This document shows, piece by piece, positions 7,701 through 32,000 of a stretch of 32,000 nucleotides of DNA. Both the position numbers and the translations under genes were made by a program. Positions within the stretch are counted from its first letter, which is position 1; each line of letters begins with the position of its first letter. Under the pieces are notes generated by a model. That model worked only from the letters and a program-made list of their open reading frames with translations, did not search any database and had not been told where the DNA came from. The stretch comes from Flavobacteriaceae bacterium (GTDB lineage Bacteria; Bacteroidota; Bacteroidia; Flavobacteriales; Flavobacteriaceae): NCBI GenBank assembly GCA_965224465.1, contig OZ245049.1, positions 3,780,001-3,812,000 on the forward strand, read 5' to 3'.

Positions 7701-7701
7701 T

Positions 7702-12792: not shown

Positions 12793-13188
12793 ATGTCGTT
12801 TTTATCACAATTAACAATAGCCGATGATACCATGAATGTATTGCGATGTTCTTTTAACTTTGAACAAGGTGCAGATGCTGCTGGTAAACCATCACAAAGA
12901 CCAAGTGGAGGGAAACTCATAATTTTAATAGAATCTACTAGTAAAACAGATTTTTTGGAATGGATGATCTCTCCCAATATGACCAAAAATGGAGAAGTTG
13001 TTTTTTATAAAAGAGACAACATGTCTAGTTTAAAAACCATTACTTTTAAAAATGCCTATTGTTTGAGCTATCAAGAAGATTTTGATGCAGAAGGGAACCA
13101 ACCTTTAAAAACACGGATTGTTGTGTCTGCAAAAGAAATTACAGTAAAGGATACTACCTTTTTCAATAACTGGTTTGATAGAGAATAA
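12793..13188 (+). CDS. tssD: Bacteroidetes-type T6SS tube protein Hcp/TssD, paralog 2 (divergent)
   Basis: 131 aa, same architecture (MSF...NVLRCSF.F.Q..DA.GKPS....GGK....IEST....F.EWM......G.V.FYKRD......I.F.NAYC..Y.E.F......P....I.VSAKEI). About one-third identity to paralog 1 by eye. Confidence 0.8.
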   Translation: MSFLSQLTIADDTMNVLRCSFNFEQGADAAGKPSQRPSGGKLIILIESTSKTDFLEWMISPNMTKNGEVVFYKRDNMSSLKTITFKNAYCLSYQEDFDAEGNQPLKTRIVVSAKEITVKDTTFFNNWFDRE

Positions 13189-13273
13189 AAAACGGGAAAG
13201 CATCCTTGATGCAATCAGTTAAAGTGAATTTATTATTGTATTTTTTTTAGAGAACACTATTAATTTAGAAAAT

Positions 13274-15046: not shown

Positions 15047-15055
15047 ATTTTAACA

Positions 15056-15208: not shown

Positions 15209-15216
15209 AAAGGGGA

Positions 15217-16032
15217 ATGAATACAAATACTGAAATACTACTAAATCATTTCAACCATGGTCTTACCAATGTGTATGGCGTAGAATGTTTTTTTAAAGAA
15301 AGCAAGAATTTGGTGAGTTATATAGTAGAAGTAACTTATAAAGCAGTTGAAGAAAGTGATTATTTACTGAAACTTACAAAAAAACGATGCTTTATTAATA
15401 AGTTAGAGCCTAAAAGCCAAATAGATGTGTTAGCACAAAGGTGTGCGGATGTTATATATCCTATAGTTTTTCAAATATCAGCTTTTGGTATTTTAACTAA
15501 AGAAAAAGTTGTGAATTTTGAAGAAATAAAACAGCGATGGAAAAGCACTTTAAAAGAATTAAAAAGGGAGTTTAAAGGCGACTATTGTAAACAGTATTTT
15601 GCGCAAATGGAAGCTAGTTTTAGAACAGAAGAAGTGTTTTATGAAAACATAAAAAACGATTTTTTATATGCACTCTTTTTTCTGAGTTTTCCTGCGTTAT
15701 ATTCAAAACATCAAACAAAGAAGGGGCTTGTTATAAAACTACCTGTTGTGGCTTATAACGATCCCGTATCTTTTGTAGGGACGCAAAAAAGTGTGTTTAC
15801 AAACAAAAAAGTATATGAACTTTATTTTAAAGGTATTGATTATGAGAATAACACCTTGGAAATAGAGCAATTAATTGATAGAGAAAGTTTTGTACTTGCT
15901 AAAGTAAAAGCAATTTATAATGCATTAAAAGAAGATGGTATTACTATTACTATAACCATGTTAAAAGAACGACAAATAAGAGAAGTCTTAAAAGAAAAGA
16001 AAAAAAATTGGTTTAATATTTTTAAAAAATAA
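15217..16032 (+). CDS. Hypothetical protein (271 aa) between vgrG and the PAAR-like gene; possible adaptor or chaperone
   Basis: Tightly packed in the operon (8 nt after the small ORF, 4 nt before the next gene). No signal peptide and no motif I recognise. Confidence 0.6.
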   Translation: MNTNTEILLNHFNHGLTNVYGVECFFKESKNLVSYIVEVTYKAVEESDYLLKLTKKRCFINKLEPKSQIDVLAQRCADVIYPIVFQISAFGILTKEKVVNFEEIKQRWKSTLKELKREFKGDYCKQYFAQMEASFRTEEVFYENIKNDFLYALFFLSFPALYSKHQTKKGLVIKLPVVAYNDPVSFVGTQKSVFTNKKVYELYFKGIDYENNTLEIEQLIDRESFVLAKVKAIYNALKEDGITITITMLKERQIREVLKEKKKNWFNIFKK

Positions 16033-16036
16033 GTGT

Positions 16037-19428: not shown

Positions 19429-19434
19429 AAATTT

Positions 19435-20508
19435 ATGAATTTTAAAATCTATTATCTCCTATTTGCTTTTTCATTTATAGGATGCTCACAAAATAAAAAA
19501 ACTGATACTTATACGATGAAATTAGATACTTATATAAATGACATATTAAAAAATGTTAAACATTCTATTGATGAAGAAGTGTTTTTTTTATCAATAAGAG
19601 CGTCAAAATCAACTTATAATATTCGGGTTAATGATATGTCGATTAAACAATCTTTTGATTATGAAGATGATAAAAAACAAAGGGTTTCACTAAACTTTCA
19701 TAATCTCAATAAAACATTTAAAAATTCAGGTAAACAAAGAATCTCTTTTAGTATTTATCCATTTAATAGAGACAGATTTAAAGCAAACGATAGAATAAAA
19801 ATTACTATTGAGAAATCAGATAAAACAGGTAATCTTACAGATTATATTGAATATAAGCCGAAAATGATTGACGATGCAGAAACTCCTGAGTTTACTGACA
19901 CAGAAGTGCATGAAGGAAGCTTTGAGTTTGAAGCAAAATTACCTTATAAAAAACAAATAGACTGGTCTGAGTCTAAAAGTTTAAAAGATCAAGAAAATAC
20001 AGAGCAAGAAGTACTAGAGGCGTATAAAGAAGTGATGAGATTATATGCAGAAGGAGATTTAGACAGTTTGTTAGAACTCTACAAACCTATTTTTCAAGAT
20101 GAGGCGCAGTCTGTATATGCAACTAAAGAAAAAGATTATAGGCTATCTTATGAATTAAACTGGGAACGTTTACATCCGTTTTTTTATAAATCAAAACCTA
20201 GATTAGATGCTGATTATGAATTAAAATTTTATGCAGACGGTAGATTGGTTACTTTAGAAAAGAAAAAAAACACGGCTTTAAGTTGTAACAAAAGTGCATT
20301 ATCCATCATATACGATAAAGATTTTGATAAATTCCCTGACAACTTGTTTGTAAGTGCCAAAGATTTAATAATGTTTGGAGATGGTACGATTCCGAAAAAA
20401 GAAATGGAAATATACTTATTCTTCTATAAACCAAAAGGATCAAATACTTTAAAATTAGCTACAGATATTTTTAGAAAAGAAAAATTATTAAATCCAATAG
20501 AAGATTAA
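19435..20508 (+). CDS. Array lipoprotein L1 (type A; putative immunity)
   Basis: 357 aa. MNFKIYYLLFAFSFIGCSQNKK is a lipobox. The conserved core 'GSFEFEAKLPYKKQIDWSES...EVLEAYKEVMRLYAEGDLDSLLELYKPIF' is shared with L2-L10. Confidence 0.85.
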   Translation: MNFKIYYLLFAFSFIGCSQNKKTDTYTMKLDTYINDILKNVKHSIDEEVFFLSIRASKSTYNIRVNDMSIKQSFDYEDDKKQRVSLNFHNLNKTFKNSGKQRISFSIYPFNRDRFKANDRIKITIEKSDKTGNLTDYIEYKPKMIDDAETPEFTDTEVHEGSFEFEAKLPYKKQIDWSESKSLKDQENTEQEVLEAYKEVMRLYAEGDLDSLLELYKPIFQDEAQSVYATKEKDYRLSYELNWERLHPFFYKSKPRLDADYELKFYADGRLVTLEKKKNTALSCNKSALSIIYDKDFDKFPDNLFVSAKDLIMFGDGTIPKKEMEIYLFFYKPKGSNTLKLATDIFRKEKLLNPIED

Positions 20509-21611
20509 TGAGATTAGGTAAACACATATTTCAGCATATAAAGATCGTTTTTGTGATGAGTCTTGTTTTTTGTACCGCATGTTCACAAACAAAAAATCAA
20601 AAAAAACTAGATAAAATGGCGACCAAAATAGACACTTATATAAACACCATATTAAAAAACGTAAAACACTATCCAGAAGAACCTGTTTATTTTATAGGTA
20701 GCACTGGTTCATATAAATACTACGAAATTAAGATAAATGATGTAATAGTCGTGCAAAACTATTTTTTAAAAGGTGAGGATACTTCTTCTCTTAGGAGATT
20801 TAGTAGTATCAACAATGCTCTTAATAAACAGGGCAAGCAAAAATTATCGTTTGCCCTCTTTCCTGAGGATGGTAAAACGTTTAAGTCCAATGATTGGGTT
20901 GAATTATCGATAGAAACTATGGATCAATTTAGAGAAACAAAAGAAATTTTCACGTTTGAACCTCCTATGAAATCTGATGGAGAAACCTCGGAGCATATTG
21001 GTTTAGAAAGCTATTCGGGAAGCTTTGAGTTTGAAGGAAAATTACCTTATAAAAAACAAATAGATTGGTCTGAATCTAATAGCTTAAAAGATCAAAAAAA
21101 CATAGAGCAAGAAGTGCTAGAGGCGTATAAAGAAGTGATGAGATTATATGCGGAAGGAGATTTAGACAGTTTGTTAGAACTCTACAAGCCTATTTTTCTA
21201 GACGAAGCACAGTCTGTATATGCTACTAAAGAAAAAGATTATAGGCTATCTTATGAATTAAACTGGGAACGTTTACATCCATTTTTTTATAAATCAAAAC
21301 CTACATTAGATGCGGATTATGAATTAAAATTTTATGCAGACGGTAGATTGGTTACTTTAGAAAAGAAAAAAAACACGGCTTTAAGTTATAACAAAAGTGC
21401 ATTATCCATCATATACGATAAAGATTTTGATAAATTCCCTGATGGCCTTACTAGAGCAAATAGGGATGTAGTAATGTTTGAAGATGTTGCCACTCCTAAA
21501 AAAGAAATGGAATTATACTTATTCTTCTATAAACCAAAAGGATCAAATACCTTAAAATTAGCTACAGATGTTTTTAGAGAGGAAGAATTATTAAATCCAA
21601 TAGAAGATTAA
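20508..21611 (+). CDS. Array lipoprotein L2 (type B)
   Basis: 367 aa. MRLGKHIFQHIKIVFVMSLVFCTACSQTK. The start ATG overlaps the L1 TAA by 1 nt. Confidence 0.85.
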   Translation: MRLGKHIFQHIKIVFVMSLVFCTACSQTKNQKKLDKMATKIDTYINTILKNVKHYPEEPVYFIGSTGSYKYYEIKINDVIVVQNYFLKGEDTSSLRRFSSINNALNKQGKQKLSFALFPEDGKTFKSNDWVELSIETMDQFRETKEIFTFEPPMKSDGETSEHIGLESYSGSFEFEGKLPYKKQIDWSESNSLKDQKNIEQEVLEAYKEVMRLYAEGDLDSLLELYKPIFLDEAQSVYATKEKDYRLSYELNWERLHPFFYKSKPTLDADYELKFYADGRLVTLEKKKNTALSYNKSALSIIYDKDFDKFPDGLTRANRDVVMFEDVATPKKEMELYLFFYKPKGSNTLKLATDVFREEELLNPIED

Positions 21612-22711
21612 TGAGATTAGGTAAACACATATTTCAGCATATAAAGATCGTTTTTGTGATGAGTCTTGTTTTTTGCACCGCTTGTGGGCAAACAAAAAAT
21701 CAAAAAAAACTAGATGAAATGGCTATCAAAATAGACACTTATATAAATACCATATTAAAAAATGTAAAACACTACCCAGAAGAACCTGTTTATTTAGTAG
21801 ATCTCTCTTCTCCATCAACATACTATGAAATTAAAGTAAATAATATAATAGTTGAGGAAAGTTATACAAATAATGAAGGGTCTTTTCCTATTAAATTATT
21901 TAGCAGTGTAAATGATGCTATCAATAAAGAAGGCAAGCAAAAAGTAACGTTTACTCTATTTCCTGCAGAAGATAAAACATTTAAATCTAATAGTTGGGTT
22001 GAAATATCTATAGAAACTATAAATCAATTTAGAGAAACAAAAGAAATTTTCACTTATGAACCTCCTATGAAATCTGATGGAGAAACCTCTGAACATATTG
22101 GTTTAGAAAGTTATTCGGGAAGCTTTGAGTTTGAAGCAAAATTACCTTATAAAAAACAAATAGATTGGTCTGAGTCTAAAAGCCTAAAAGAACAAAAAAA
22201 CATAGAACAAGAAGTGCTAGAGGCGTATAAAGAAGTAATGAGATTATATGCAGAAGGAGATATAGACAGTTTATTAGAACTCTATAAACCTATTTTTCAA
22301 GATGAGGCACAGTCTGTATATACTACTAAAGACAAAAAAGGTTGGGTAAATTACCGATTGAAATGGGAACGTTTACATCCATTTTTTTATAAATCAAAAC
22401 CTATATTAGATACTGATTATGAATTAAAATTTTATGCAGAGGGTAGATTAGTTACTTTAGAAAAGAAAAAAGATACTGCTTTAAGTTATAACAAAAGTGC
22501 ATTATCCATCATATACGATAAAGATTTTGATAAATTTACTGACAACTTATTTGTAAGTGCCAAAGATTTAATAATGTTTGGAGATGGTACGATTCCTAAA
22601 AAAGAAATGGAATTATACTTATTCTTTTATAAACCAAAAGGATCAAATACTTTAAAATTAGCTACAGATATTTTTAGAGAGGAAAAATTATTAAATCCAA
22701 TAGAAGATTAA
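21611..22711 (+). CDS. Array lipoprotein L3 (type B)
   Basis: 366 aa, TAATG overlap with L2. Carries the variant modules 'TTKDKKGWVNYRLKW' and 'FTDNLFVSAKDLIMFGDGTIP'. Confidence 0.85.
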   Translation: MRLGKHIFQHIKIVFVMSLVFCTACGQTKNQKKLDEMAIKIDTYINTILKNVKHYPEEPVYLVDLSSPSTYYEIKVNNIIVEESYTNNEGSFPIKLFSSVNDAINKEGKQKVTFTLFPAEDKTFKSNSWVEISIETINQFRETKEIFTYEPPMKSDGETSEHIGLESYSGSFEFEAKLPYKKQIDWSESKSLKEQKNIEQEVLEAYKEVMRLYAEGDIDSLLELYKPIFQDEAQSVYTTKDKKGWVNYRLKWERLHPFFYKSKPILDTDYELKFYAEGRLVTLEKKKDTALSYNKSALSIIYDKDFDKFTDNLFVSAKDLIMFGDGTIPKKEMELYLFFYKPKGSNTLKLATDIFREEKLLNPIED

Positions 22712-23811
22712 TGAGATTAGGTAAATACATATTTCAGCATATAAAGATCATTTTTTTGATGAGTCTTGTTTTTTGCACCGCATGTTCACAAACAAAAAAT
22801 CAAAAAAAACTAGATGAAATGGCTATCAAAATCGACACTTATATAAATACCATATTAAAAAACGTAAAACACTATCCAGAAGAACCTGTTTATTTTATAA
22901 GTAGCCCAGGTCCATATAAATACTACGAAATTAAAATAAATGATATTATAGTTATACAAAATTATTTTTCAAAAGGTGATGCCCCTTCTTATAGGAATTT
23001 TAGTAGTATCAACAATGCTCTTAATAAAAAGGGCAAGCAAAATTTAACGTTTACTCTATTCCCTTCAAAAGATAAAACGTTTCAGTCCAATGATTGGGTT
23101 GAGTTATCGATAGAAACTATGGATCAATTTAGAGAAAGAAAAGAAATTTTCACGTTTGAACCTCCTATGAAATCTGATGGAGAAACCTCGGAGCATATTG
23201 GTTTAGAAAGCTATTCGGGAAGCTTTGAGTTTGAAGCAAAATTACCTTATAAAAAACAAATAGATTGGTCTGAGTCTAAAAGTTTAAAAGATCAAAAAAA
23301 TACAGAGCAAGAAGTGCTAGAGGCGTATAAAGAAGTAATGAGATTATATGCAGAAGGAGATTTAGACAGTTTGTTAGAACTCTACAAACCTATTTTTCAA
23401 GATGAGGCGCAGTCTGTATATGCAACTAAAGAAAAAAAGAGTAGGCTAAGTTACCGATTAAACTGGGAACGTTTACATCCATTTTTTTATAAATCAAAAC
23501 CTACATTAGATGCTGATTATGAATTAAAATTTTATGCAGAGGGTAGATTGGTTACTTTAGAAAAGAAAAAAAACACGGCTTTAAGTTGTAACAAAAGTGC
23601 ATTATCCATCATATACGATAAAGATTTTGATAAATTCCCTGATGGCCTTACTAGAGCAAATAGGGATGTAGTAATGTTTGAAGATGTTGCCACTCCTAAA
23701 AAAGAAATGGAATTATACTTATTCTTCTATAAACCAAAAGGATCAAATACCTTAAAATTAGCTACAGATGTTTTTAGAGAGGAAGAATTATTAAATCCAA
23801 TAGAAGATTAA
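22711..23811 (+). CDS. Array lipoprotein L4 (type B)
   Basis: 366 aa, TAATG overlap. Carries the modules 'ATKEKKSRLSYRLNW' and 'FPDGLTRANRDVVMFEDVATP'. Same protein as L9 except three residues in the last 14 aa (DVFREEE vs DIFRKEK). Confidence 0.85.
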   Translation: MRLGKYIFQHIKIIFLMSLVFCTACSQTKNQKKLDEMAIKIDTYINTILKNVKHYPEEPVYFISSPGPYKYYEIKINDIIVIQNYFSKGDAPSYRNFSSINNALNKKGKQNLTFTLFPSKDKTFQSNDWVELSIETMDQFRERKEIFTFEPPMKSDGETSEHIGLESYSGSFEFEAKLPYKKQIDWSESKSLKDQKNTEQEVLEAYKEVMRLYAEGDLDSLLELYKPIFQDEAQSVYATKEKKSRLSYRLNWERLHPFFYKSKPTLDADYELKFYAEGRLVTLEKKKNTALSCNKSALSIIYDKDFDKFPDGLTRANRDVVMFEDVATPKKEMELYLFFYKPKGSNTLKLATDVFREEELLNPIED

Positions 23812-24878
23812 TGAGATTAGGTAAACACATATTTCAGTATATAAAGATCATTTTTGTGATGAGTCTTGTTTTTTGCACCGCTTGTGGGCAAACAAAAAAT
23901 CAAAAAAAACTAGATGAAATGGCTGTCAAAATAGACACTTATGTGAATACCATATTAAAAAATGTAAAGTATTACCCAGAAGAACCTGTTTATTTAGTGG
24001 ATCTCTCTTCTTCATCAGGATATTACGAAATTAAAATAAATGATGTAATAGTCGAGCAAAACTATTTCTCAAAAGGTGAGGACCCTTCTTCTTTTAGGAG
24101 ATTTAGTAGTATCAACAATGCTCTTAATAAACAGGGCAAGCAAAAAATATCGTTTGCCCTGTTTTCTGAGGAATATAAAACGTTTCAGTCCAATGATTGG
24201 CTTGATGTATCGATAGAAACGATGGATCAATTTAGAGAAACAAAAGAAATTTTCACGTTTGAGCCTCCTATGAAATCTGATGGAGAAACCTCGGAGCATA
24301 TTGGTTTAGAAAGCTATTCGGGAAGCTTTGAGTTTGAAGCAAAATTACCTTATAAAAAACAAATAGATTGGTCTGAGTCTAAAAGTTTAAAAGATCAAAA
24401 AAATACAGAGCAAGAAGTGTTAGAGGCGTATAAAGAAGTGATGAGATTATATGCAGAAGGAGATTTAGACAGTTTGTTAGAACTCTACAAACCTATTTTT
24501 CAAGATGAGGCGCAGTCTGTATATGCAACTAAAGAAAAAGATTATAGGGTCTCTTATGAATTAAACTGGGAACGTTTACATCCATTTTTTTATAAATCAA
24601 AACCTAGATTAGATGCGGATTATGAATTAAAATTTTATGCAGACGGTAGATTGGTTACTTTAGATAAGAAAAAAAACACGGCTTTAAGTTGTAACAAAAG
24701 TGCATTATCCATCATATACGATAAAGATTTTGATAAAATGCCTGATGGTACAAGGGTAAATATAAAATATTTAAAAATGTTTGAGGATGGTGTGGTGCCT
24801 AAAATGGAAATGGAAATATACTTATTCTTTTATAAACCAAAAGGATCAAATACTTTAAAATTAGCTACAGATATTTAA
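23811..24878 (+). CDS. Array lipoprotein L5 (type B, lacks the last ~11 conserved residues)
   Basis: 355 aa, ending '...LKLATDI*' where the other members continue 'FR.E.LLNPIED'. The 3' end is replaced by the effector-3' relic. Confidence 0.8.
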   Translation: MRLGKHIFQYIKIIFVMSLVFCTACGQTKNQKKLDEMAVKIDTYVNTILKNVKYYPEEPVYLVDLSSSSGYYEIKINDVIVEQNYFSKGEDPSSFRRFSSINNALNKQGKQKISFALFSEEYKTFQSNDWLDVSIETMDQFRETKEIFTFEPPMKSDGETSEHIGLESYSGSFEFEAKLPYKKQIDWSESKSLKDQKNTEQEVLEAYKEVMRLYAEGDLDSLLELYKPIFQDEAQSVYATKEKDYRVSYELNWERLHPFFYKSKPRLDADYELKFYADGRLVTLDKKKNTALSCNKSALSIIYDKDFDKMPDGTRVNIKYLKMFEDGVVPKMEMEIYLFFYKPKGSNTLKLATDI

Positions 24879-24940
24879 AGAAAAAAAAATTTTACTACCG
24901 AAAATTTATTTATTTGATCCATTAAGAAATTTTAAAACAA
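24877..24940 (+). pseudogene. Relic of the 3' end of a second (variant) copy of the 965-aa effector gene
   Basis: About 80% nt identity by hand alignment to 19363..19425. It translates as KEKKILLPKIYLFDPLRNFK, versus EEKKILLPKLYLFDPLRQFKK* at the end of ORF 16531..19428. It has the same spacing to the following lipoprotein start. Confidence 0.75.
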
Positions 24941-24946
24941 TTGAAA

Positions 24947-26023
24947 ATGAAAATTATTAAATTTTGTAACCGATTACTATTGATATTTACATTAGTGGCT
25001 TGCTCACAAACAAAAAGTAAGCTAAAAATAAAAAACGATCTTAAAATTATGAAAATAGATAGCTATATTTCTAACCTTATAAAAAATGTGGAGCACTTTG
25101 GTGAGGAAAAAACATTTAATCTCGATGTGTGGGTAACAAAATCGAACTATAAAATACAAATAAATGATTTGCCAGTAGAAGAATGTTTTGACTATGAAAA
25201 TAATCAACATATTTTCCGAAGTTATCAAAGTGTTAATAGTGTTCTTAAAATAGGTAGTAAACAAAAAGTGTCTTTTAAAATATGGCCACTAGATAGAAAG
25301 ACCTTTCTAAGTACTGACAAGATTAAAATAACAATAGAGGAAATAGATCAAACAGGTGAATTAAGTGATTTTTTTATTTATAATCCTCCAATGTTAGATG
25401 ATGGGGAAACCCCAGAATATGTTGGCAAAGAAAGTTATTCGGGTAGTTTTGAATTTGAAGCAACTTTACCTTATAAAAAAGAAGTTGATTGGTTTAAATC
25501 CGAAGATTTAAGGAATTCACCAAATATTCAACAGGAAGTACTAGTAGCATACAAAGAAATAGGGCGGTTGTATGAAAGTGGGGATTTTGAAACTCTGTTA
25601 CAACTATATGATCCCATATTTAAAACTGAGGCACAATCCACTTTTGCTACTAAAGAAAGATTAGACTATTTAAATGTTCCTGACAGGATTTACCCTTTTT
25701 TATATAAATCGAAAGTTGTATTAGACCCCAATTATGAAATAAAATTTTATGCTGACGGAACATTAGTAGCTTTGAAAACGAAAACTTCTGAACGGAATTA
25801 TTCTAAATCACCATTAACGATTAGATATGATAAAGATTTTGATCTTTTGCCAGAGAGTGCAAATGTAAATTCTAAAGAATTAAAACTTAATCTCAGTGGT
25901 ACGATTCCTAAAAAAGAAATGGAATTATACTTATTCTTCTATAAACCAAAAGGATCAAATACCTTAAAATTAGCTACAGATGTTTTTAGAGAGGAAGAAT
26001 TATTAAATCCAATAGAAGATTAA
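24947..26023 (+). CDS. Array lipoprotein L6 (type A, divergent)
   Basis: ATG at 24947 (the ORF track starts at TTG 24941). MKIIKFCNRLLLIFTLVACSQTK is a lipobox. It diverges from type B through most of its length, but the last ~110 nt match the L4 3' end with no differences seen. Confidence 0.85.
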   Translation: MKIIKFCNRLLLIFTLVACSQTKSKLKIKNDLKIMKIDSYISNLIKNVEHFGEEKTFNLDVWVTKSNYKIQINDLPVEECFDYENNQHIFRSYQSVNSVLKIGSKQKVSFKIWPLDRKTFLSTDKIKITIEEIDQTGELSDFFIYNPPMLDDGETPEYVGKESYSGSFEFEATLPYKKEVDWFKSEDLRNSPNIQQEVLVAYKEIGRLYESGDFETLLQLYDPIFKTEAQSTFATKERLDYLNVPDRIYPFLYKSKVVLDPNYEIKFYADGTLVALKTKTSERNYSKSPLTIRYDKDFDLLPESANVNSKELKLNLSGTIPKKEMELYLFFYKPKGSNTLKLATDVFREEELLNPIED

Positions 26024-27120
26024 TGAGATTAGGTAAATACATATTTCAGCATATAAAGATCGTTTTTGTGATGAGTCTTGTTTTTTGCACCGCTTGTTCA
26101 CAAACAAAAAATCAAAAAAAACTAGATGAAATGGCTATTAAAATAGACACTTATATAAATACCATATTAAAAAATGTAAAACACTACCCAGAAGAACCTG
26201 TTTATTTAGTAGACCTCTCTTCTTCATCAGGATATTACGAAATTAAAATAAATGATGTTATAATTGATCAACATTATTTTTCAAAAGATTACCCTACCAC
26301 AATCAGAACTTATAGCAGTATCAACAATGCTCTTAATAAAGAAGGCAAGCAAAAAGTAACGTTTACTCTATTTCCTGCAGAAGATAAAACATTTAAATCT
26401 AATAGTTGGGTTGAAATATCTATAGAAACTATAAATCAATTTAGAGAAACAAAAGAAATTTTCACTTATGAACCTCCTATGAAATCTGATGGAGAAACCT
26501 CTGAACATATTGGTTTAGAAAGTTATTCGGGAAGCTTTGAGTTTGAAGCAAAATTACCTTATAAAAAACAAATAGATTGGTCTGAGTCTAAAAGCCTAAA
26601 AGAACAAAAAAACATAGAACAAGAAGTGCTAGAGGCGTATAAAGAAGTAATGAGATTATATGCAGAAGGAGATATAGACAGTTTATTAGAACTCTATAAA
26701 CCTATTTTTCAAGATGAGGCACAGTCTGTATATACTACTAAAGACAAAAAAGGTTGGGTAAATTACCGATTGAAATGGGAACGTTTACATCCATTTTTTT
26801 ATAAATCAAAACCTATATTAGATACTGATTATGAATTAAAATTTTATGCAGAGGGTAGATTAGTTACTTTAGAAAAGAAAAAAGATACTGCTTTAAGTTA
26901 TAACAAAAGTGCATTATCCATCATATACGATAAAGATTTTGATAAATTTACTGACAACTTATTTGTAAGTGCCAAAGATTTAATAATGTTTGGAGATGGT
27001 ACGATTCCGAAAAAAGAAATGGAATTATACTTATTCTTTTATAAACCAAAAGGATCAAATACTTTAAAATTAGCAACGGATATTTTTAGAAAAGAAAAAT
27101 TATTAAACGGAGAGGATTAA
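26023..27120 (+). CDS. Array lipoprotein L7 (type B)
   Basis: 365 aa. It has a unique N-terminal patch 'IIDQHYFSKDYPTTIRTY'; from ~aa 105 it is identical to L3 except the C-terminal 'FRKEKLLNGED'. Confidence 0.85.
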   Translation: MRLGKYIFQHIKIVFVMSLVFCTACSQTKNQKKLDEMAIKIDTYINTILKNVKHYPEEPVYLVDLSSSSGYYEIKINDVIIDQHYFSKDYPTTIRTYSSINNALNKEGKQKVTFTLFPAEDKTFKSNSWVEISIETINQFRETKEIFTYEPPMKSDGETSEHIGLESYSGSFEFEAKLPYKKQIDWSESKSLKEQKNIEQEVLEAYKEVMRLYAEGDIDSLLELYKPIFQDEAQSVYTTKDKKGWVNYRLKWERLHPFFYKSKPILDTDYELKFYAEGRLVTLEKKKDTALSYNKSALSIIYDKDFDKFTDNLFVSAKDLIMFGDGTIPKKEMELYLFFYKPKGSNTLKLATDIFRKEKLLNGED

Positions 27121-28220
27121 TGATATTTGGTAAACGTATATTTCAGCATATAAAAATCATTTTGGTAATGAGTCTTGTTTTTTGCACCGCATGTTCACAA
27201 ACAAAAAATCAAAAAAAACTAGATGAAATGGCTATCAAAATCGACACTTATATAAATACCATATTAAAAAACGTAAAACACTATCCAGAAGAACCTGTTT
27301 ATTTTATAAGTAGCCCAGGTCCATATAAATACTACGAAATTAAAATAAATGATATTATAGTTATACAAAATTATTTTTCAAAAGGTGATGCCCCTTCTTA
27401 TAGGAATTTTAGTAGTATCAACAATGCTCTTAATAAAAAGGGCAAGCAAAATTTAACGTTTACCCTATTTCCTTCAAAAGATAAAACGTTTCAGTCCAAT
27501 GATTGGGTTGAGTTATCGATAGAAACTATGGACCAATTTAGAGAAACAAAAGAAATTTTCACGTTTGAACCTCCTATGAAATCTGATGGAGAAACCTCGG
27601 AGCATATTGGTTTAGAAAGCTATTCGGGAAGCTTTGAGTTTGAAGCAAAATTACCTTATAAAAAACAAATAGATTGGTCTGAGTCTAAAAGCCTAAAAGA
27701 ACAAAAAAACATAGAACAAGAAGTGCTAGAGGCGTATAAAGAAGTAATGAGATTATATGCAGAAGGAGATATAGACAGTTTATTAGAACTCTATAAACCT
27801 ATTTTTCAAGATGAGGCACAGTCTGTATATACTACTAAAGACAAAAAAGGTTGGGTAAATTACCGATTGAAATGGGAACGTTTACATCCATTTTTTTATA
27901 AATCAAAACCTATATTAGATACTGATTATGAATTAAAATTTTATGCAGAGGGTAGATTAGTTACTTTAGAAAAGAAAAAAGATACTGCTTTAAGTTATAA
28001 CAAAAGTGCATTATCCATCATATACGATAAAGATTTTGATAAATTTACTGACAACTTATTTGTAAGTGCCAAAGATTTAATAATGTTTGGAGATGGTACG
28101 ATTCCTAAAAAAGAAATGGAATTATACTTATTCTTTTATAAACCAAAAGGATCAAATACTTTAAAATTAGCTACAGATATTTTTAGAGAGGAAAAATTAT
28201 TAAATCCAATAGAAGATTAA
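27120..28220 (+). CDS. Array lipoprotein L8 (type B, chimera of an L4-like N-half and an L3-like C-half)
   Basis: 366 aa with the variant leader MIFGKRIFQHIKIILVM. Residues ~17-180 match L4/L9 and residues ~180-366 match L3. Confidence 0.85.
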   Translation: MIFGKRIFQHIKIILVMSLVFCTACSQTKNQKKLDEMAIKIDTYINTILKNVKHYPEEPVYFISSPGPYKYYEIKINDIIVIQNYFSKGDAPSYRNFSSINNALNKKGKQNLTFTLFPSKDKTFQSNDWVELSIETMDQFRETKEIFTFEPPMKSDGETSEHIGLESYSGSFEFEAKLPYKKQIDWSESKSLKEQKNIEQEVLEAYKEVMRLYAEGDIDSLLELYKPIFQDEAQSVYTTKDKKGWVNYRLKWERLHPFFYKSKPILDTDYELKFYAEGRLVTLEKKKDTALSYNKSALSIIYDKDFDKFTDNLFVSAKDLIMFGDGTIPKKEMELYLFFYKPKGSNTLKLATDIFREEKLLNPIED

Positions 28221-29320
28221 TGAGATTAGGTAAATACATATTTCAGCATATAAAGATCATTTTTTTGATGAGTCTTGTTTTTTGCACCGCATGTTCACAA
28301 ACAAAAAATCAAAAAAAACTAGATGAAATGGCTATCAAAATCGACACTTATATAAATACCATATTAAAAAACGTAAAACACTATCCAGAAGAACCTGTTT
28401 ATTTTATAAGTAGCCCAGGTCCATATAAATACTACGAAATTAAAATAAATGATATTATAGTTATACAAAATTATTTTTCAAAAGGTGATGCCCCTTCTTA
28501 TAGGAATTTTAGTAGTATCAACAATGCTCTTAATAAAAAGGGCAAGCAAAATTTAACGTTTACTCTATTCCCTTCAAAAGATAAAACGTTTCAGTCCAAT
28601 GATTGGGTTGAGTTATCGATAGAAACTATGGATCAATTTAGAGAAAGAAAAGAAATTTTCACGTTTGAACCTCCTATGAAATCTGATGGAGAAACCTCGG
28701 AGCATATTGGTTTAGAAAGCTATTCGGGAAGCTTTGAGTTTGAAGCAAAATTACCTTATAAAAAACAAATAGATTGGTCTGAGTCTAAAAGTTTAAAAGA
28801 TCAAAAAAATACAGAGCAAGAAGTGCTAGAGGCGTATAAAGAAGTAATGAGATTATATGCAGAAGGAGATTTAGACAGTTTGTTAGAACTCTACAAACCT
28901 ATTTTTCAAGATGAGGCGCAGTCTGTATATGCAACTAAAGAAAAAAAGAGTAGGCTAAGTTACCGATTAAACTGGGAACGTTTACATCCATTTTTTTATA
29001 AATCAAAACCTACATTAGATGCTGATTATGAATTAAAATTTTATGCAGAGGGTAGATTGGTTACTTTAGAAAAGAAAAAAAACACGGCTTTAAGTTGTAA
29101 CAAAAGTGCATTATCCATCATATACGATAAAGATTTTGATAAATTCCCTGATGGCCTTACTAGAGCAAATAGGGATGTAGTAATGTTTGAAGATGTTGCC
29201 ACTCCTAAAAAAGAAATGGAATTATACTTATTCTTCTATAAACCAAAAGGATCAAATACTTTAAAATTAGCTACAGATATTTTTAGAAAAGAAAAATTAT
29301 TAAATCCAATAGAAGATTAA
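28220..29320 (+). CDS. Array lipoprotein L9 (type B; near-duplicate of L4)
   Basis: 366 aa. No nucleotide differences from L4 seen over ~1.03 kb from the start (offset 5509 bp). Confidence 0.85.
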   Translation: MRLGKYIFQHIKIIFLMSLVFCTACSQTKNQKKLDEMAIKIDTYINTILKNVKHYPEEPVYFISSPGPYKYYEIKINDIIVIQNYFSKGDAPSYRNFSSINNALNKKGKQNLTFTLFPSKDKTFQSNDWVELSIETMDQFRERKEIFTFEPPMKSDGETSEHIGLESYSGSFEFEAKLPYKKQIDWSESKSLKDQKNTEQEVLEAYKEVMRLYAEGDLDSLLELYKPIFQDEAQSVYATKEKKSRLSYRLNWERLHPFFYKSKPTLDADYELKFYAEGRLVTLEKKKNTALSCNKSALSIIYDKDFDKFPDGLTRANRDVVMFEDVATPKKEMELYLFFYKPKGSNTLKLATDIFRKEKLLNPIED

Positions 29321-29770: not shown

Positions 29771-31344
29771 ACTCAAGTTTCGCACTTAGATAGATTTACG
29801 CAACCTCTTGGCAATTAAGTTTATGGGTATTTACTAGAAATCCAAAATTCTCAATATTCACTATTATTTTACGTGTAATTAACTCAATATCAATAGATTC
29901 AATCATCTTTTCCAAAACATCAATCACCAAACTGACAACTGCTAATATCCTGATGTTTAGCTTATTCTCTATATAATCTTGTTTTAAATCTTTAAACAAC
30001 CCTCCTATTGTTTCGTAGGCTTCCATTCTATATCGAATACTGGTGAGTAAATATTGAACCATTATAATGCTTATTTGTGCGATTTGAATATCAAAATTAG
30101 TGGACTGACATTTTCCAAGACCAAACAACTGCTTAGCTTCTTTAAAAAACACTTCTATGGACCATCTGATACTGTATATTTCAATAGCCTTTACGAATTT
30201 CAGTGTTGTGTCAGTTGATATTAACGTATGCCATTTGCCATTCTTTCCACGTTTTGAAATAAATACAGCAACCTTAAGACCGTCAATTTCAGTTATGTAA
30301 TGATGGTAGTAATAATTGAATTTACGGCATCGTTTTGGTTTTATTTTCTGTTTTTTGAGTTGTGACAAGGTTTTAATCTTTGATTTAACTTCAATTTTAC
30401 TGTTGTATTTATACATTCCTATAATATGAGTTAAGCTACTAATGTCCCGTAACTTTCTAAGTAATTTAACACTTGTAAACCAACTGTCTATTAAGATGTA
30501 ATCTACAGGTACCTTACGTTTTATAAGCCTTGAGAACATTTGCACCAACAAGTCTGTTTTCTTTTTATTGAGTTCCTGATACCTTTTTGCTGCAATTGTT
30601 TTACTACATCTCGGCGTTTTCTTTTGAAGTCTACGTTGCTTTGCTGTTAGTCCGTATTTTAATTTTGATGTTTTACTTTCACGGTGTAAACTAAAATCAA
30701 CAGGAATAAATACACTTCCGTTCCAGTAACCAGCAACAAGTAGTTTATAACCTAGGTAATACGTTTTTGATACATGGTTGTATATTTTTGAAACACCTTC
30801 AATTGTCTTTCCTGTTTTAGAAAGATCAGTATCATCAAAGATCAAGCATCTTGTAGCATCTTTAGATGGAGTAAAGAACTCTTCTTTTAATAGATATTGC
30901 TTCACAAACTGAGCTAGAAAAACCCTCCAATTTATCTTTTGATTTGCTAGGATTCGATAGTATGAATCTTTACCAGACTGACCTAATCCTTTGTCTTTAT
31001 TGCTTGTAAGTCCATGAATAGAGTCAAATCCAATAATAGGTAAAATTAAAAGTGTAGAAATCAAATTACCGAATGAAATCCCCGATTTCTTACACCAACT
31101 AAACTTGTTTTTAATTTTATTGAATCCTAAAATATTTAGATGTGCTTGTAGGTATTCTGAACTAAGCCAAATCTTATTAAATTTTCCTTTTATCTCCTGT
31201 GTTTTTGTGATATCTTCGTGTTCTAGCATGTTTTGTACTTTCTTGTTCGTACTTAAAAGTACAATAAAACCAGGGGATTACCTTGGTTTTCATGCTATTT
31301 ATTTTCACTTAAACACCTGTAAATGATGGGTGCGAAACTTGAGT
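29771..31344 (-). mobile_element. IS4-family insertion sequence, copy B (1574 bp)
   Basis: Same terminal inverted repeats (29771..29785 and 31330..31344). TSD TATTT (29766..29770 and 31345..31349). The uninterrupted target can be read in L6 at 25381..25395 (tttttatttataatc). Confidence 0.9.
29796..31229 (-). CDS. IS4-family DDE transposase (copy B)
   Basis: 477 aa, differing from copy A at about 15 residues; same YREK motif. Confidence 0.85.
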   Translation of the reverse strand: MLEHEDITKTQEIKGKFNKIWLSSEYLQAHLNILGFNKIKNKFSWCKKSGISFGNLISTLLILPIIGFDSIHGLTSNKDKGLGQSGKDSYYRILANQKINWRVFLAQFVKQYLLKEEFFTPSKDATRCLIFDDTDLSKTGKTIEGVSKIYNHVSKTYYLGYKLLVAGYWNGSVFIPVDFSLHRESKTSKLKYGLTAKQRRLQKKTPRCSKTIAAKRYQELNKKKTDLLVQMFSRLIKRKVPVDYILIDSWFTSVKLLRKLRDISSLTHIIGMYKYNSKIEVKSKIKTLSQLKKQKIKPKRCRKFNYYYHHYITEIDGLKVAVFISKRGKNGKWHTLISTDTTLKFVKAIEIYSIRWSIEVFFKEAKQLFGLGKCQSTNFDIQIAQISIIMVQYLLTSIRYRMEAYETIGGLFKDLKQDYIENKLNIRILAVVSLVIDVLEKMIESIDIELITRKIIVNIENFGFLVNTHKLNCQEVA

Positions 31345-31349
31345 TATTT

Positions 31350-31993
31350 ATAATCCTCCAATGTTAGATGATGGGGAAACCCCAGAATATGTTGGCAAAG
31401 AAAGTTATTCGGGTAGTTTTGAATTTGAAGCAACTTTACCTTATAAAAAAGAAGTTGATTGGTTTAAATTCGAAGATTTAAGGAATTCACCAAATATTCA
31501 ACAGGAAGTACTAGTAGCATACAAAGAAATAGGGCGGTTGTATGAAAGTGGGGATTTTGAAACTCTGTTACAACTATATGATCCCATATTTAAAACTGAG
31601 GCACAATCCACTTTTGCTACTAAAGAAAGATTAGACTATTTAAATGTTCCTGACAGGATTCACCCTTTTTTATATAAATCGAAAGTTGTATTAGATCCTA
31701 ATTATGAAATAAAATTTTATGCTGACGGAACATTAGTAGCTTTGAAAACGAAAACTTCTGAACGGAATTATTCTAAATCACCATTAACGATTAGATATGA
31801 TAAAGATTTTGATCTTTTGCCAGAGAGTGCAAATGTAAATTCTAAAGAATTAAAACTTAATCTCAGTGGTACGATTCCGAAAAAAGAAATGGAATTATAC
31901 TTATTCTTCTATAAACCAAAAGGATCAAATACTTTAAAATTAGCTACAGATATTTTTAGAGAGGAAAAATTATTAAATCCAATAGAAGATTAA
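31350..31993 (+). pseudogene. Array lipoprotein L10, 3' part
   Basis: Codon T(29770)+AT(31350..31351) restores '...FFIYNPPMLDDGETPEY...' exactly as in L6. The frame is open to TAA at 31991..31993. Confidence 0.8.
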
Positions 31994-32000
31994 TGAGATT
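31993..32000 (+). CDS. Start of a further array lipoprotein (L11), truncated by the window end
   Basis: 'TAATGAGATT' is the same stop/start overlap and 'MRL...' leader as the other type-B units. Confidence 0.6.

What the first reader, a model, noticed from the sequence alone, without database searches (positions are those of the whole stretch)
21611..29320. Array members are mosaics: hypervariable patches on a constant scaffold, chimeric genes and a ~1.6-kb repeat with no differences seen
Aligning the translations shows a constant core (GSFEFEAKLPYKKQIDWSES...LHPFFYKSKP...DYELKFYA.GRLVTLEKKK..ALS.NKSALSIIYDKDFDK...KKEMELYLFFYKPKGSNTLKLATD). Three variable patches occur as discrete alternative modules.
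- HV1, aa ~60-135: at least 6 versions.
- HV2, aa ~231-245: ATKEKDYRLSYELNW, TTKDKKGWVNYRLKW, ATKEKKSRLSYRLNW or ATKERLDYLNVPDRI.
- HV3, aa ~300-322: FPDNLFVSAKDLIMFGDGTIP, FPDGLTRANRDVVMFEDVATP, MPDGTRVNIKYLKMFEDGVVP or LPESANVNSKELKLNLSGTIP.

The modules are shuffled between genes.
- L8 is an L4/L9 N-half joined to an L3/L7 C-half, with the switch near 27630.
- L5 HV1 begins like L7 and ends like L2.
- L1 (type A) carries the same HV2 as L2 and the same HV3 as L3.
- About 22125..23745 recurs at about 27634..29254 (offset 5509 bp) with no differences that I could see.

This is the pattern expected from repeated unequal crossing-over and gene conversion. Diversity is concentrated in a few surface patches, as expected for a repertoire of binding specificities.
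Basis: seen in the sequence. Interest (0 to 1): 0.75.

Follow-up and report, generated by a model that had tools for sequence, protein, structure and literature searches.

The report
Mosaic T6SS immunity-gene array
Eleven or more back-to-back copies of a lipoprotein gene follow a type VI secretion toxin gene in a marine Flavobacteriaceae genome, most likely antidote (immunity) genes that recombination keeps duplicating and reshuffling, a pattern already known from other bacterial toxin systems.

Summary
The array is 19435-32000 and runs past the window end. It holds ten ~1.1-kb paralogues, L1-L10, plus the first bases of an L11. They are joined by overlapping stop/start codons (TAATG).

- **Repeat:** 22112-23750 is base-for-base identical to 27621-29259 (1639 bp).
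- **Clustering:** differences are strongly clustered (chi-square p about 1e-15).
- **Recombination:** a site-order permutation test gives p<0.001, and at least 21 recombination events are needed among seven genes.
- **L8:** it is an L4/L9-L3/L7 chimera with its breakpoint in 27621-27691.

The array lies directly after two Hcp genes, VgrG, a conserved 271-aa gene, a DUF4280 PAAR-like gene and a 965-aa effector candidate. That order recurs in seven loci from other genomes, six of them with 2-3 family genes and Lacinutrix with six. A relic of an effector 3' end sits between L5 and L6.

My reading is a co-transcribed set of periplasmic lipoprotein immunity proteins, diversified by unequal crossing-over and gene conversion.

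Positive selection is not shown. dN/dS in the variable patches is 0.43-0.62, and dS is raised there too.

The kind is already known: T7SS esaG/tipC arrays and Vibrio cholerae orphan immunity arrays. This is a new member, with a new unnamed protein family in a Bacteroidota T6SS.

The parts
12132..12518 (+). Hcp/TssD paralogue 1
   Evidence: Pfam TssD PF17642, E 2e-52
12793..13188 (+). Hcp/TssD paralogue 2
   Evidence: Pfam TssD PF17642, E 8e-47
13274..15046 (+). VgrG spike protein
   Evidence: Pfam Phage_base_V, Phage_GPD and DUF2345. NCBIfam vgr_GE E 6e-34, just under its curated cut-off
15217..16032 (+). Conserved 271-aa gene at the position of a T6SS adaptor
   Evidence: No Pfam or NCBIfam hit. 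31-34% identical homologues sit at the same position in L001-L004. The adaptor role is inferred from the Ate3 position in the B. fragilis Bte3 module (PMC13402684).
16037..16522 (+). DUF4280 PAAR-like spike-tip protein
   Evidence: Pfam DUF4280 E 4e-20 and weak NCBIfam IglG match. 70-77% identical in L001-L004.
16531..19428 (+). 965-aa putative T6SS effector
   Evidence: No known family. Homologues only in Aquimarina, Tenacibaculum and Lacinutrix (L003). Always found between the DUF4280 gene and the lipoprotein genes. AF2 model has pLDDT 69: beta-rich N part, hydrophobic helix 659-686, long beta-hairpins 720-920.
19435..20508 (+). L1, A-type lipoprotein whose C-half has been converted to B-type
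20508..21611 (+). L2, B-type
21611..22711 (+). L3, B-type. Its C part (from 22112) lies in the exact repeat.
22711..23811 (+). L4, B-type. It differs from L9 at 5 bases only, all in the last 60 nt.
23811..24878 (+). L5, B-type. It lacks the last 12 codons because the gene runs into the effector-tail relic.
24875..24940 (+). Relic of an effector gene 3' end. In frame it reads KEKKILLPKIYLFDPLRNFK, against EEKKILLPKLYLFDPLRQFKK* at 19375-19431.
   Evidence: Alignment and translation
24947..26023 (+). L6, divergent A-type member and first gene after the effector relic. Only its last ~40 codons are homogenised with the others.
   Evidence: Start taken as in database protein P0018.
26023..27120 (+). 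L7, B-type. From codon 105 it is 99.4% identical to L3.
27120..28220 (+). L8, chimera of an L4/L9-type N part and an L3/L7-type C part. Breakpoint interval 27621-27691.
28220..29320 (+). L9, near-copy of L4
29320..29771 (+). L10 N part. It carries a B-type signal peptide, then an L6-type body from codon 27 on.
29772..31343 (-). IS element inside L10, with a DDE transposase at 29796-31229, terminal inverted repeat CTCAAGTTTCGCAC and a 7-bp duplication TTATTTA.
   Evidence: A second copy lies at 4044-5615, 94.8% identical.
31351..31993 (+). L10 C part. Removing the IS and one copy of the duplication restores a 364-codon reading frame.
31993..32000 (+). Start of an eleventh gene (TAATGAGATT junction), cut off by the window end
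22112..23750 (+). Exact repeat, copy 1 (L3 C part plus almost all of L4)
27621..29259 (+). Exact repeat, copy 2 (L8 C part plus almost all of L9)

Best explanation
The array is a co-transcribed set of at least 11 paralogous lipoprotein immunity genes. It belongs to a Bacteroidota-type (T6SSiii) effector module made of VgrG, a 271-aa adaptor-like protein, a DUF4280 PAAR-like tip and a 965-aa effector.

How it most likely works:
- The effector is delivered on the spike into neighbouring cells and acts in the cell envelope.
- The lipoproteins sit in the periplasm, bind incoming effector and neutralise it.
- The other Aquimarina loci carry 2-3 genes of the family, with one A-type-like and one B-type-like gene where I compared them. 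Here the set has expanded.

How the array evolves:
- Stretches of 100-400 nt or more at 97-100% identity, together with identical gene junctions, allow RecA-type unequal crossing-over. This changes copy number; the 1.6-1.9-kb duplicate lies five units apart.
- The same stretches allow gene conversion, which homogenises the scaffold and reassorts three divergent segments (HV1, HV2, HV3) into new combinations.
- At least one block, the effector-tail relic plus L6 onwards, came from a module that once followed a different effector allele.
- The likely benefit is protection against several effector variants carried by related strains.

Shown: the anatomy, the recombination, and the conserved synteny with T6SS spike genes. 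Inferred: the toxin and immunity functions, periplasmic localisation, and any difference in specificity between copies.
For: **Context.** Two TssD genes, VgrG and DUF4280 lie directly upstream.

**Synteny.** The order DUF4280 / 950-995-aa homologue / family lipoproteins recurs in seven loci from Aquimarina and Lacinutrix genomes. A homologue of the 271-aa gene was confirmed upstream in L001-L004; L006-L008 have a 288-289-aa gene at that position that I did not compare.

**Effector and immunity co-vary.**
- Genomes whose effector C-half is 70-90% identical carry 50-72% identical lipoproteins.
- Genomes with a distant effector (37-40%) carry a distant family member (26-28%) in first position.

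**Export signal.** Every copy has an N-terminal hydrophobic stretch followed by Cys-Ser/Gly-Gln.

**Operon structure.** TAATG overlaps at 8 of 9 lipoprotein junctions, and no terminator-like site inside the array outside the IS.

**Effector 3' relic before L6**.

**Recombination.**

**Precedent.**
- In B. fragilis, the module of adaptor, DUF4280, Bte3 effector and Bti3 lipoprotein immunity has been tested experimentally, and Bte3 is toxic in the periplasm (PMC13402684).
- Immunity paralogue arrays that recombine through conserved blocks, with toxin 3' fragments inside the array, are described for T7SS (PMC9484751).
Against: - No toxin or immunity activity has been tested. Neither protein matches any Pfam, NCBIfam, PADLOC or PDB family.
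- Structure searches gave no match at E<=0.001 for the lipoprotein, and only low-TM matches (TM <= 0.11 over the whole model) for the effector.
- The lipobox of the B-type copies (F-C-T-A-C) is non-canonical at position -3.
- dN/dS in the variable patches is below 1, so selection for new specificities is not demonstrated.
- L4 and L9 encode nearly the same protein, so part of the expansion adds dose, not diversity.
- Core T6SS apparatus genes are not in the window.
Confidence: 0.75

Rival explanations
1. The genes are immunity genes, but the expansion is a neutral or dosage-driven by-product of unequal crossing-over. The copies would not differ in specificity, and the variable patches would simply be the least constrained parts of the protein, having escaped homogenisation.
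For: - dN/dS is below 1 in all patches, and dS is raised there too.
- Per-site variability among the window's paralogues tracks variability among homologues elsewhere (Spearman 0.64). HV2 is no more variable than the scaffold family-wide.
- L4 and L9 are near-duplicates.
- L5 is truncated and L10 is broken by an IS.
Against: - Seven distinct HV1 versions are kept in intact reading frames.
- HV segments differ by 16-21% at non-synonymous sites while the adjacent scaffold is 2-7%.
- Related effectors are polymorphic, with a sharp dip in identity at residues 841-880 among close relatives.
- Other loci also keep more than one family member.
Confidence: 0.2
2. The lipoproteins are not immunity proteins. 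They would be another envelope family that happens to be linked to the T6SS island, for example variable surface lipoproteins or adhesins, or accessory factors for effector delivery.
For: - No family assignment is possible.
- Tandem lipoprotein arrays that recombine also exist outside toxin systems; the S. aureus lpl genes are cited in PMC9484751.
Against: - The genes lie strictly and recurrently right after the effector homologue in eight loci.
- The family type changes with the effector C-half.
- An effector-tail relic sits inside the array.
- There is no acidic stretch after the lipid-attachment Cys (CSQTKNQKK), as would be expected for a surface-export signal of Bacteroidota lipoproteins (my own knowledge).
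Confidence: 0.07
3. The long identical segment and the high copy number are assembly artefacts of a shorter array.
For: A perfect 1639-bp repeat within a tandem array is the kind of sequence that assemblers can misplace. No reads were available here.
Against: - The database places these proteins on a single 5.24-Mb contig, which suggests a finished assembly.
- Both ends of the repeat lie in frame within intact genes and have different flanks.
- Assemblers usually collapse such repeats rather than expand them (my own knowledge).
- Mosaicism does not depend on this one repeat; Rmin is 21, with many shorter tracts.
Confidence: 0.04

Closest known systems
T7SS immunity paralogue arrays (esaG in Staphylococcus aureus, tipC in Streptococcus; Garrett et al. 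2022, PMC9484751)
   Same: - Strings of up to 12-15 non-identical immunity paralogues lie beside a polymorphic toxin.
- Conserved nucleotide blocks flank variable segments.
- Recombination between paralogues changes both copy number and sequence.
- A toxin 3' fragment sits inside the S. aureus tsaI immunity array (the tspA fragment described in the same paper).
- That paper interprets the conserved parts as a scaffold and the variable parts as the toxin-binding region.
   Different: - The secretion system (T6SSiii, not T7SS) and the phylum (Bacteroidota, not Firmicutes) differ.
- The protein family is unrelated and unnamed.
- The genes here are about 1.1 kb with three variable segments, and their stop and start codons overlap.
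Orphan immunity gene arrays of Vibrio cholerae T6SS clusters (Kirchberger et al. 2017, PMC5361080)
   Same: - Arrays of immunity genes lie 3' of the effector.
- Effector 3' ends are left behind when a new effector-immunity module displaces an old effector. The L5/L6 relic fits this.
- The proposed benefit is protection against effectors of kin strains.
   Different: The Vibrio arrays are heterogeneous: they hold different immunity families acquired horizontally, and the authors argue against duplication. Here all members belong to one family, and most of the array arose by duplication and gene conversion within the locus.
Bacteroides fragilis GA3 Bte3 module: Ate3 adaptor, Pte3 (DUF4280), Bte3 effector and Bti3 lipoprotein immunity (PMC13402684)
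   Same: - The module has the same components: a VgrG, an adaptor, a DUF4280 PAAR-like protein, a large beta-rich effector with no signal peptide, and a lipoprotein immunity protein with an N-terminal beta-sandwich.
- The paper reports such modules in free-living Bacteroidota too.
   Different: - In B. fragilis the accessory genes lie downstream of bti3; here they lie upstream of the effector.
- No sequence relationship was detected. The effector profile search found only marine Flavobacteriaceae.
- Bti3 is described as a beta-sandwich plus four helices. The L4 model has a beta-sandwich plus an alpha+beta, NTF2-like domain.
- Bte3 has a single immunity gene, not an array.
[quoted passage not shown]
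   Same: Arrays of divergent orphan immunity genes in Bacteroidota that protect against T6SS effectors of other strains.
   Different: - rAID arrays are mobile, lie next to a tyrosine recombinase and are separate from the effector locus.
- Here the array follows its own effector, and the window holds no tyrosine recombinase, only IS transposases.

Membership tests
T6SS effector-immunity locus (Bacteroidota T6SSiii) | Physical linkage to T6SS spike genes (Hcp/TssD, VgrG, PAAR or PAAR-like) | tested here: met
   TssD x2, VgrG and DUF4280 lie at 12132-16522, immediately upstream.
T6SS effector-immunity locus (Bacteroidota T6SSiii) | The effector gene is followed by the candidate immunity gene(s), and this order is conserved across genomes | tested here: met
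   The window and seven loci from other genomes, eight in all, share the order DUF4280 / 950-995-aa protein / family lipoproteins.
T6SS effector-immunity locus (Bacteroidota T6SSiii) | The immunity protein carries an export signal that matches the compartment where the toxin acts | tested here: inconclusive
   All copies have a hydrophobic N-terminus and a Cys in a lipobox-like context. It is canonical in L1 and L6 and non-canonical at -3 in the B-type copies. No signal-peptide predictor was available, and the toxin's compartment is unknown.
T6SS effector-immunity locus (Bacteroidota T6SSiii) | The effector is toxic and the immunity protein neutralises it | not testable with these tools
   This needs toxicity, rescue and binding experiments.
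T6SS effector-immunity locus (Bacteroidota T6SSiii) | Core apparatus genes (TssB, C, E, F, G, K, N, O, P, R) are present in the genome | not testable with these tools
   These genes are outside the 32-kb window, and the source genome could not be retrieved.
Bte3/Bti3-type module (B. fragilis GA3) | A DUF4280 PAAR-like gene and an adaptor gene accompany the effector | tested here: inconclusive
   DUF4280 is met. A conserved 271-aa gene occupies the adaptor position, but its relationship to Ate3 was not tested because no Ate3 sequence or model was at hand.
Bte3/Bti3-type module (B. fragilis GA3) | [quoted passage not shown] | tested here: inconclusive
   The AF2 model (pLDDT 69, pTM 0.44) is beta-rich, with 20-25-residue strands over 720-920. 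The PDB fold search gave only low-TM matches to multi-beta-sandwich proteins. No comparison with a Bte3 model was possible.
Bte3/Bti3-type module (B. fragilis GA3) | Detectable sequence homology of the effector or immunity protein to Bte3 or Bti3 | tested here: not met
   Profile searches of the effector recovered 19 proteins, and those that carry a taxon name are all from marine Flavobacteriaceae. The 339 representatives of the lipoprotein family carry no names. The searches could miss very distant relatives.
Immunity paralogue arrays that evolve by inter-paralogue recombination (esaG/tipC type) | Tandem non-identical paralogues next to a polymorphic toxin gene | tested here: met
   At least 11 paralogues are present. 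The effector homologues are 37-61% identical and modular.
Immunity paralogue arrays that evolve by inter-paralogue recombination (esaG/tipC type) | Conserved nucleotide blocks separate variable segments | tested here: met
   See the sliding-window painting and the segment barcode. Clustering of variable sites has p = 4e-15.
Immunity paralogue arrays that evolve by inter-paralogue recombination (esaG/tipC type) | Statistical evidence of recombination between paralogues | tested here: met
   Permutation p<0.001 and Rmin 21, the L8 breakpoint interval, and the contrast between the two halves of L1.
Immunity paralogue arrays that evolve by inter-paralogue recombination (esaG/tipC type) | Copy number varies between related genomes | tested here: met
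   2, 2, 3, 2 and 2 family genes in five Aquimarina loci, 2 in A. algicola and 6 in Lacinutrix, against at least 11 here. No same-species strains were available.
Immunity paralogue arrays that evolve by inter-paralogue recombination (esaG/tipC type) | Belongs to a T7SS of Firmicutes | tested here: not met
   The context is T6SS (TssD, VgrG, DUF4280) in a Flavobacteriaceae-like genome. This is therefore an analogue, not a member.
rAID (recombinase-associated acquired interbacterial defence) | A tyrosine recombinase lies next to the orphan immunity array, and the array is detached from an effector | tested here: not met
   No such recombinase was found among the window ORFs scanned against Pfam, only DDE, IS66 and IstB elements. 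The array follows its effector.
Diversity-generating retroelement target | A reverse transcriptase, and template/variable repeats that differ at adenines | tested here: not met
   No reverse-transcriptase domain was found among the ORFs scanned against Pfam. The share of HV differences at A positions (0.14-0.58) is about the A content (0.34-0.41).

The most novel reading that the evidence does not exclude
The three variable segments would be independent specificity determinants that contact different polymorphic parts of the effector. One candidate is the patch at effector residues 841-880, which is only 34% conserved among otherwise 60-90% identical C-halves. On this reading, gene conversion between co-expressed paralogues works as a combinatorial generator of new immunity specificities. 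The cell would then hold a standing, reassortable anticipatory repertoire against effector alleles it has not yet met. The short homology between the live effector 3' end (19375-19431) and the relic (24875-24935) could in addition allow a one-step deletion that swaps which block of the array follows the effector.
Probability: 0.2. Interest if true: 0.65.

Novelty: new member of a known kind. Interest (0 to 1): 0.4.

Why it matters
- **First T6SS example in my literature searches.** It extends the principle that tandem immunity paralogues diversify by recombination through conserved blocks. That principle was documented for Gram-positive T7SS, and here it appears in a Bacteroidota T6SS.
- **Unusually legible example.** There are at least 11 translationally coupled copies. 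Three segments reassort. One perfect 1.6-kb recent duplicate is present. An effector-tail scar dates an older module fusion.
- **Two unannotated families flagged for experiment.**
  - A ~965-aa effector known only from marine Flavobacteriaceae.
  - A lipoprotein family with 339 representative clusters at E<=0.001 and no Pfam model.
- **Practical point.** Arrays like this are easily mis-assembled or mis-annotated, and they distort estimates of effector-immunity repertoires.

Tried and rejected
- **Family searches.** Pfam, NCBIfam, PADLOC and PDB-sequence searches of the lipoproteins, the effector and the 271-aa protein gave nothing significant.
- **A source name I could not support.** One homologue (P0007) is called 'TraB/GumN family protein' by NCBI. 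It has no Pfam hit here at E<=0.05, so I disregard the name.
- **Fold search of the L4 model against PDB.** There was no hit at E<=0.001. The only consistent weak signal is NTF2-like folds for the C-terminal domain (CaMKII hub, designed NTF2 binder, NXT1, SnoaL-like cyclase; target TM 0.4-0.6) and Ig-like folds for the N-terminal domain.
- **Fold search of the effector model.** Only low-TM matches to multi-beta-sandwich proteins.
- **Source genome.** Exact look-ups of P0002 and P0020 found no record, and cluster members carry no accession.
- **Link to Bacteroides Bte3.** The profile search for distant effector relatives added only one fragment.
- **Diversity-generating retroelement.** Rejected: no adenine bias and no reverse-transcriptase domain among the ORFs scanned.
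- **Invertible or shufflon-type switching.** Rejected: all genes are co-oriented with overlapping stops and starts, and there is no site-specific recombinase.
- **Internal promoters or terminators.** Promoter-like hits are fewer than in shuffles (58 against 88). The only terminator-like site within the array span lies inside the IS.
- **My PHI-type statistic.** It uses a simplified incompatibility score, so only its permutation p-value is meaningful, not its absolute value.

Full report
**1. What is in the sequence**

The window has about 30% G+C. From 19435 to its end it carries a head-to-tail series of ~1.1-kb open reading frames on the + strand.

| Gene | Coordinates |
|---|---|
| L1 | 19435-20508 |
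| L2 | 20508-21611 |
| L3 | 21611-22711 |
| L4 | 22711-23811 |
| L5 | 23811-24878 |
| L6 | 24947-26023 |
| L7 | 26023-27120 |
| L8 | 27120-28220 |
| L9 | 28220-29320 |
| L10 | 29320-29771 plus 31351-31993 |

- L10 is interrupted by a 1572-bp IS element at 29772-31343. The IS has a DDE transposase, terminal inverted repeats CTCAAGTTTCGCAC and a 7-bp duplication TTATTTA.
- Removing the IS and one copy of the duplication restores a 364-codon frame.
- The window ends with ...GAAGATTAATGAGATT. This is the same junction as between all other members, so an eleventh gene starts at 31993 and the array continues beyond the window.
- Eight of the nine junctions between lipoprotein genes are TAATG overlaps of stop and start.
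- No terminator-like site lies within the array outside the IS, and promoter-like matches are fewer than in shuffled sequence.
- The genes therefore look like one translationally coupled operon. All copies would be expressed together, rather than one at a time.

**2. Check of the observation**

*The repeat.* The claimed repeat is real and slightly longer than reported.
- 22112-23750 equals 27621-29259 over 1639 bp without a mismatch.
- It lies inside a 1874-bp segment with 11 mismatches.

*Clustering of variation.* Variation is not spread evenly.
- Among the seven B-type genes, the count of variable sites per 30-nt bin runs from 0 to 18 (chi-square p = 4e-15).
- The maxima are at codons ~60-135 (HV1), ~240-260 (HV2) and ~310-335 (HV3).

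*Reassortment.* I clustered each segment at 97% nucleotide identity to give every gene a 'barcode'. The barcodes show reassortment.
- L8 carries the L4/L9 allele of the linker and HV1, and the L3/L7 allele of HV2 and HV3.
- L1, L4, L5 and L9 share the mid-1b allele but have different HV1 alleles.
- L2, L4 and L9 share the HV3 allele.

*Recombination.*
- The L8 breakpoint lies in 27621-27691, the 71 bp where L8 matches both parents.
- Shuffling site order never reached the observed clustering of compatible sites (0 of 1000).
- The four-gamete test needs at least 21 recombination events among seven genes.

- HV1 has seven versions, not six.
- HV2 has a fifth, one-residue variant in L5.
- L1 HV3 differs from L3 HV3 by one residue.

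**3. Gene conversion and older history**

*L1.* L1 is the clearest case of conversion.
- Its N-half (residues 27-160) is 31-34% identical to the B-type neighbours and 56-62% identical to proteins P0013 and P0014 from other Aquimarina genomes.
- Its C-half (161-352) is 86-89% identical to the neighbours and only 71-72% identical to P0013 and P0014.
- The C-half has therefore been homogenised inside this genome.

*L6 and L10.* These two form a divergent type.
- L6 is 59-61% identical to the B-type genes in the C-half.
- Only its last ~40 codons and the following junction are homogenised (99.5% identical to L2/L3).

*L5/L6 relic.* The 68-bp spacer between L5 and L6 is not random.
- Positions 24875-24940 align at about 85% with the last ~60 nt of the 965-aa gene.
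- In frame they read KEKKILLPKIYLFDPLRNFK, against EEKKILLPKLYLFDPLRQFKK* in the effector.
- L5 lacks its last 12 codons because it runs into this relic.
- So L6 and the genes after it once followed another copy or allele of the effector. The two modules were joined by a recombination that deleted most of that effector.

*L10.* L10 has a B-type signal peptide that matches L5 codons 1-30 with one mismatch, and an L6-type body from codon 27 on. It is a further chimera.

**4. Selection**

I pooled Nei-Gojobori estimates over the five non-redundant B-type genes.

| Region | dN/dS | dS |
|---|---|---|
| HV1 | 0.43 | 0.49 |
| HV2 | 0.58 | 0.30 |
| HV3 | 0.62 | 0.39 |
| Scaffold segments | 0.11-0.33 | 0.12-0.26 |

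- The patches are relatively enriched in amino-acid change, but none exceeds 1.
- Their higher dS means they are older haplotypes, while the scaffold has been homogenised.
- Per-site variability among the paralogues correlates with variability among homologues from other genomes (Spearman 0.64).
- HV1 and HV3 are variable family-wide. HV2 is not.
- This fits an interface under diversifying pressure, but it fits low constraint equally well.
- There is no adenine bias of the kind made by diversity-generating retroelements.

**5. What the genes are**

*The lipoproteins.*
- They have no Pfam, NCBIfam, PADLOC or PDB-sequence match.
- Close relatives number 19 proteins. The named ones are from Aquimarina, and one cluster also holds Lacinutrix mariniflava proteins.
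- A profile search of 1.84 billion representatives finds 339 clusters at E<=0.001. The best-scoring ones are mostly ~320-aa proteins, and none of those scanned had a Pfam domain for this region.

*The L4 structure model* (pLDDT 75.7) has these parts:
- an N-terminal helix, which is the signal peptide and linker;
- a beta-sandwich over residues 60-175;
- a C-terminal domain of three helices packed on a six-stranded sheet over residues 198-355.

Fold search of the L4 model:
- Only weak matches. The consistent ones for the C-terminal domain are NTF2-like folds, at target TM 0.4-0.6.
- No match reaches E<=0.001.
- HV2 and HV3 include the two low-confidence loops at 242-247 and 317-322.
- HV1 covers the first four or five strands of the sandwich.

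*The upstream context* is informative. In order it holds:
- two Hcp/TssD genes (12132-12518 and 12793-13188);
- VgrG (13274-15046);
- a conserved 271-aa gene (15217-16032);
- a DUF4280 PAAR-like gene (16037-16522);
- a 965-aa gene (16531-19428) that ends 6 bp before L1.

*Synteny elsewhere*.
- The order DUF4280 / 950-995-aa homologue / family lipoproteins recurs in Aquimarina sp. I32.4, an uncultured Aquimarina, A. algicola, Lacinutrix mariniflava and three further assemblies.
- A homologue of the 271-aa gene was confirmed upstream in L001-L004.
- Six of these loci carry two or three family genes.

*The Lacinutrix locus*.
- It carries six family genes, one of them a pseudogene.
- It has its own 2.9-kb segmental duplication at 84% identity.
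- Expansion of this family is therefore recurrent.

*The effector is itself modular*.
- Its N-half is about 50% identical to all relatives.
- Its C-half is 70-90% identical to four Aquimarina relatives and 11-44% identical to thirteen others.
- Among the close relatives there is a dip to 34% at residues 841-880.

*The lipoprotein type follows the effector C-half*.
- Loci with a close C-half have 57-70% identical lipoproteins.
- Loci with a distant effector have a 26-28% identical family member in first position, and an L4-like gene (52-60%) further downstream, which looks like an orphan.

*The effector model* (pLDDT 69).
- It is beta-rich.
- It has a strongly hydrophobic helix at 659-686.
- It has a series of 20-25-residue strands between 720 and 920.
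- The fold search gave no useful match.

**6. Most likely mechanism**

The array most likely encodes periplasmic lipoprotein immunity proteins against the adjacent T6SS effector and its allelic variants in related strains.

Shown:
- linkage to spike genes;
- synteny conserved across genera;
- co-variation of the effector C-half with lipoprotein type;
- export signals;
- operon structure;
- an effector-tail relic;
- pervasive recombination.

Inferred:
- toxicity of the effector;
- its site of action;
- binding by the lipoproteins;
- differences in specificity between copies.

An experimentally tested module with the same components exists in Bacteroides fragilis (PMC13402684).
- VgrG, adaptor Ate3, DUF4280 protein Pte3 and effector Bte3 form a pre-secretion complex.
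- Bte3 kills only when sent to the periplasm.
- The lipoprotein Bti3 protects against it.

I could not establish homology to that module, only the same logic.

**7. Comparison with what is known**

- The evolutionary pattern is known. In T7SS, esaG and tipC immunity paralogues recombine through conserved blocks, which changes copy number and sequence. A toxin 3' fragment lies within the tsaI array (PMC9484751).
- In Vibrio cholerae, orphan immunity arrays arise when incoming modules displace effectors and leave their 3' ends behind (PMC5361080).
- Gut Bacteroidales carry recombinase-associated arrays of orphan immunity genes (PMC12247911).
- The present array combines the first two processes. 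One junction (L5/L6) is of the displacement type. The rest is within-family duplication and conversion.
- It is not an rAID cluster, because it has no recombinase and follows its own effector.

I therefore rate it a new member of a known kind. The example is clear and large, in a secretion-system class and protein families where my literature searches turned up no description of it.

**8. Limits**

- No reads were available, so an assembly artefact cannot be formally excluded. The proteins map to one 5.24-Mb contig, and the mosaic signal does not depend on the one long repeat.
- The source genome and its core T6SS genes could not be retrieved.

Noticed in passing
window 24875-24940: The L5/L6 spacer is a relic of an effector gene 3' end, about 85% identical to 19375-19431. 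It marks the join of two formerly separate effector-immunity modules and explains why L5 lacks its last 12 codons.
   Followed up: yes
window 31993-32000: The window ends on the standard TAATGAGATT junction, so the array has at least an eleventh member beyond the window.
   Followed up: partly
window 4044-5615 and 29772-31343: Two copies of the same IS (DDE transposase, 94.8% identical, same orientation) are both flanked by TTATTTA. Between them lie about 24 kb holding the Hcp genes, VgrG, DUF4280, the effector and most of the array. This could be a composite-transposon-like unit or simply a shared target preference.
   Followed up: partly
window 3781-4043 and 5595-6425: A 94-aa ORF matches the C-terminal ~60 residues of the 585-aa ORF at 229-1986 (36-37% identity, E 1e-10 to 1e-12). 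The first IS copy cuts it off. A lipoprotein-like ORF follows the IS. This looks like another orphaned effector tail with a possible immunity gene.
   Followed up: partly
window 229-2794: A 585-aa ORF with no Pfam or NCBIfam hit is followed 4 bp later by a 267-aa lipoprotein-like ORF. This is possibly a further effector-immunity pair.
   Followed up: no
window 6488-7364: An ORF with a phage-lysozyme domain (Pfam E 2e-27) overlaps the start of a small lipoprotein-like ORF. This is probably a peptidoglycan-hydrolase effector with its immunity gene.
   Followed up: no
window 7392-9797; 3122-3493; 11034-11590: An intact three-gene IS66 element is present (TnpB and transposase domains found), together with IstB (IS21) and IS66 fragments. 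The island is heavily colonised by insertion sequences.
   Followed up: partly
window 16531-19428 (effector), alignment A2: The effector is modular. Its N-half is about 50% identical to all relatives. Its C-half is 70-90% identical to four Aquimarina relatives and 11-44% to the others. Among the close relatives there is a local dip to 34% at residues 841-880, which is a candidate contact region for the immunity proteins.
   Followed up: partly
L003 4944-11026 (Lacinutrix mariniflava): An independent array holds four ~322-aa distant family members, one full-length L4-like pseudogene with a single stop (6904-8011) and one intact L4-like gene. It contains a 2.9-kb segmental duplication at 84% identity.
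   Followed up: partly
L006, L007 and L008 (Aquimarina assemblies): In these relatives VgrG is followed by a ~486-aa gene and three to five ~205-232-aa genes before the adaptor-like gene. This may be a second effector with its own small array. That block is absent between VgrG and the 271-aa gene in the window.
   Followed up: no
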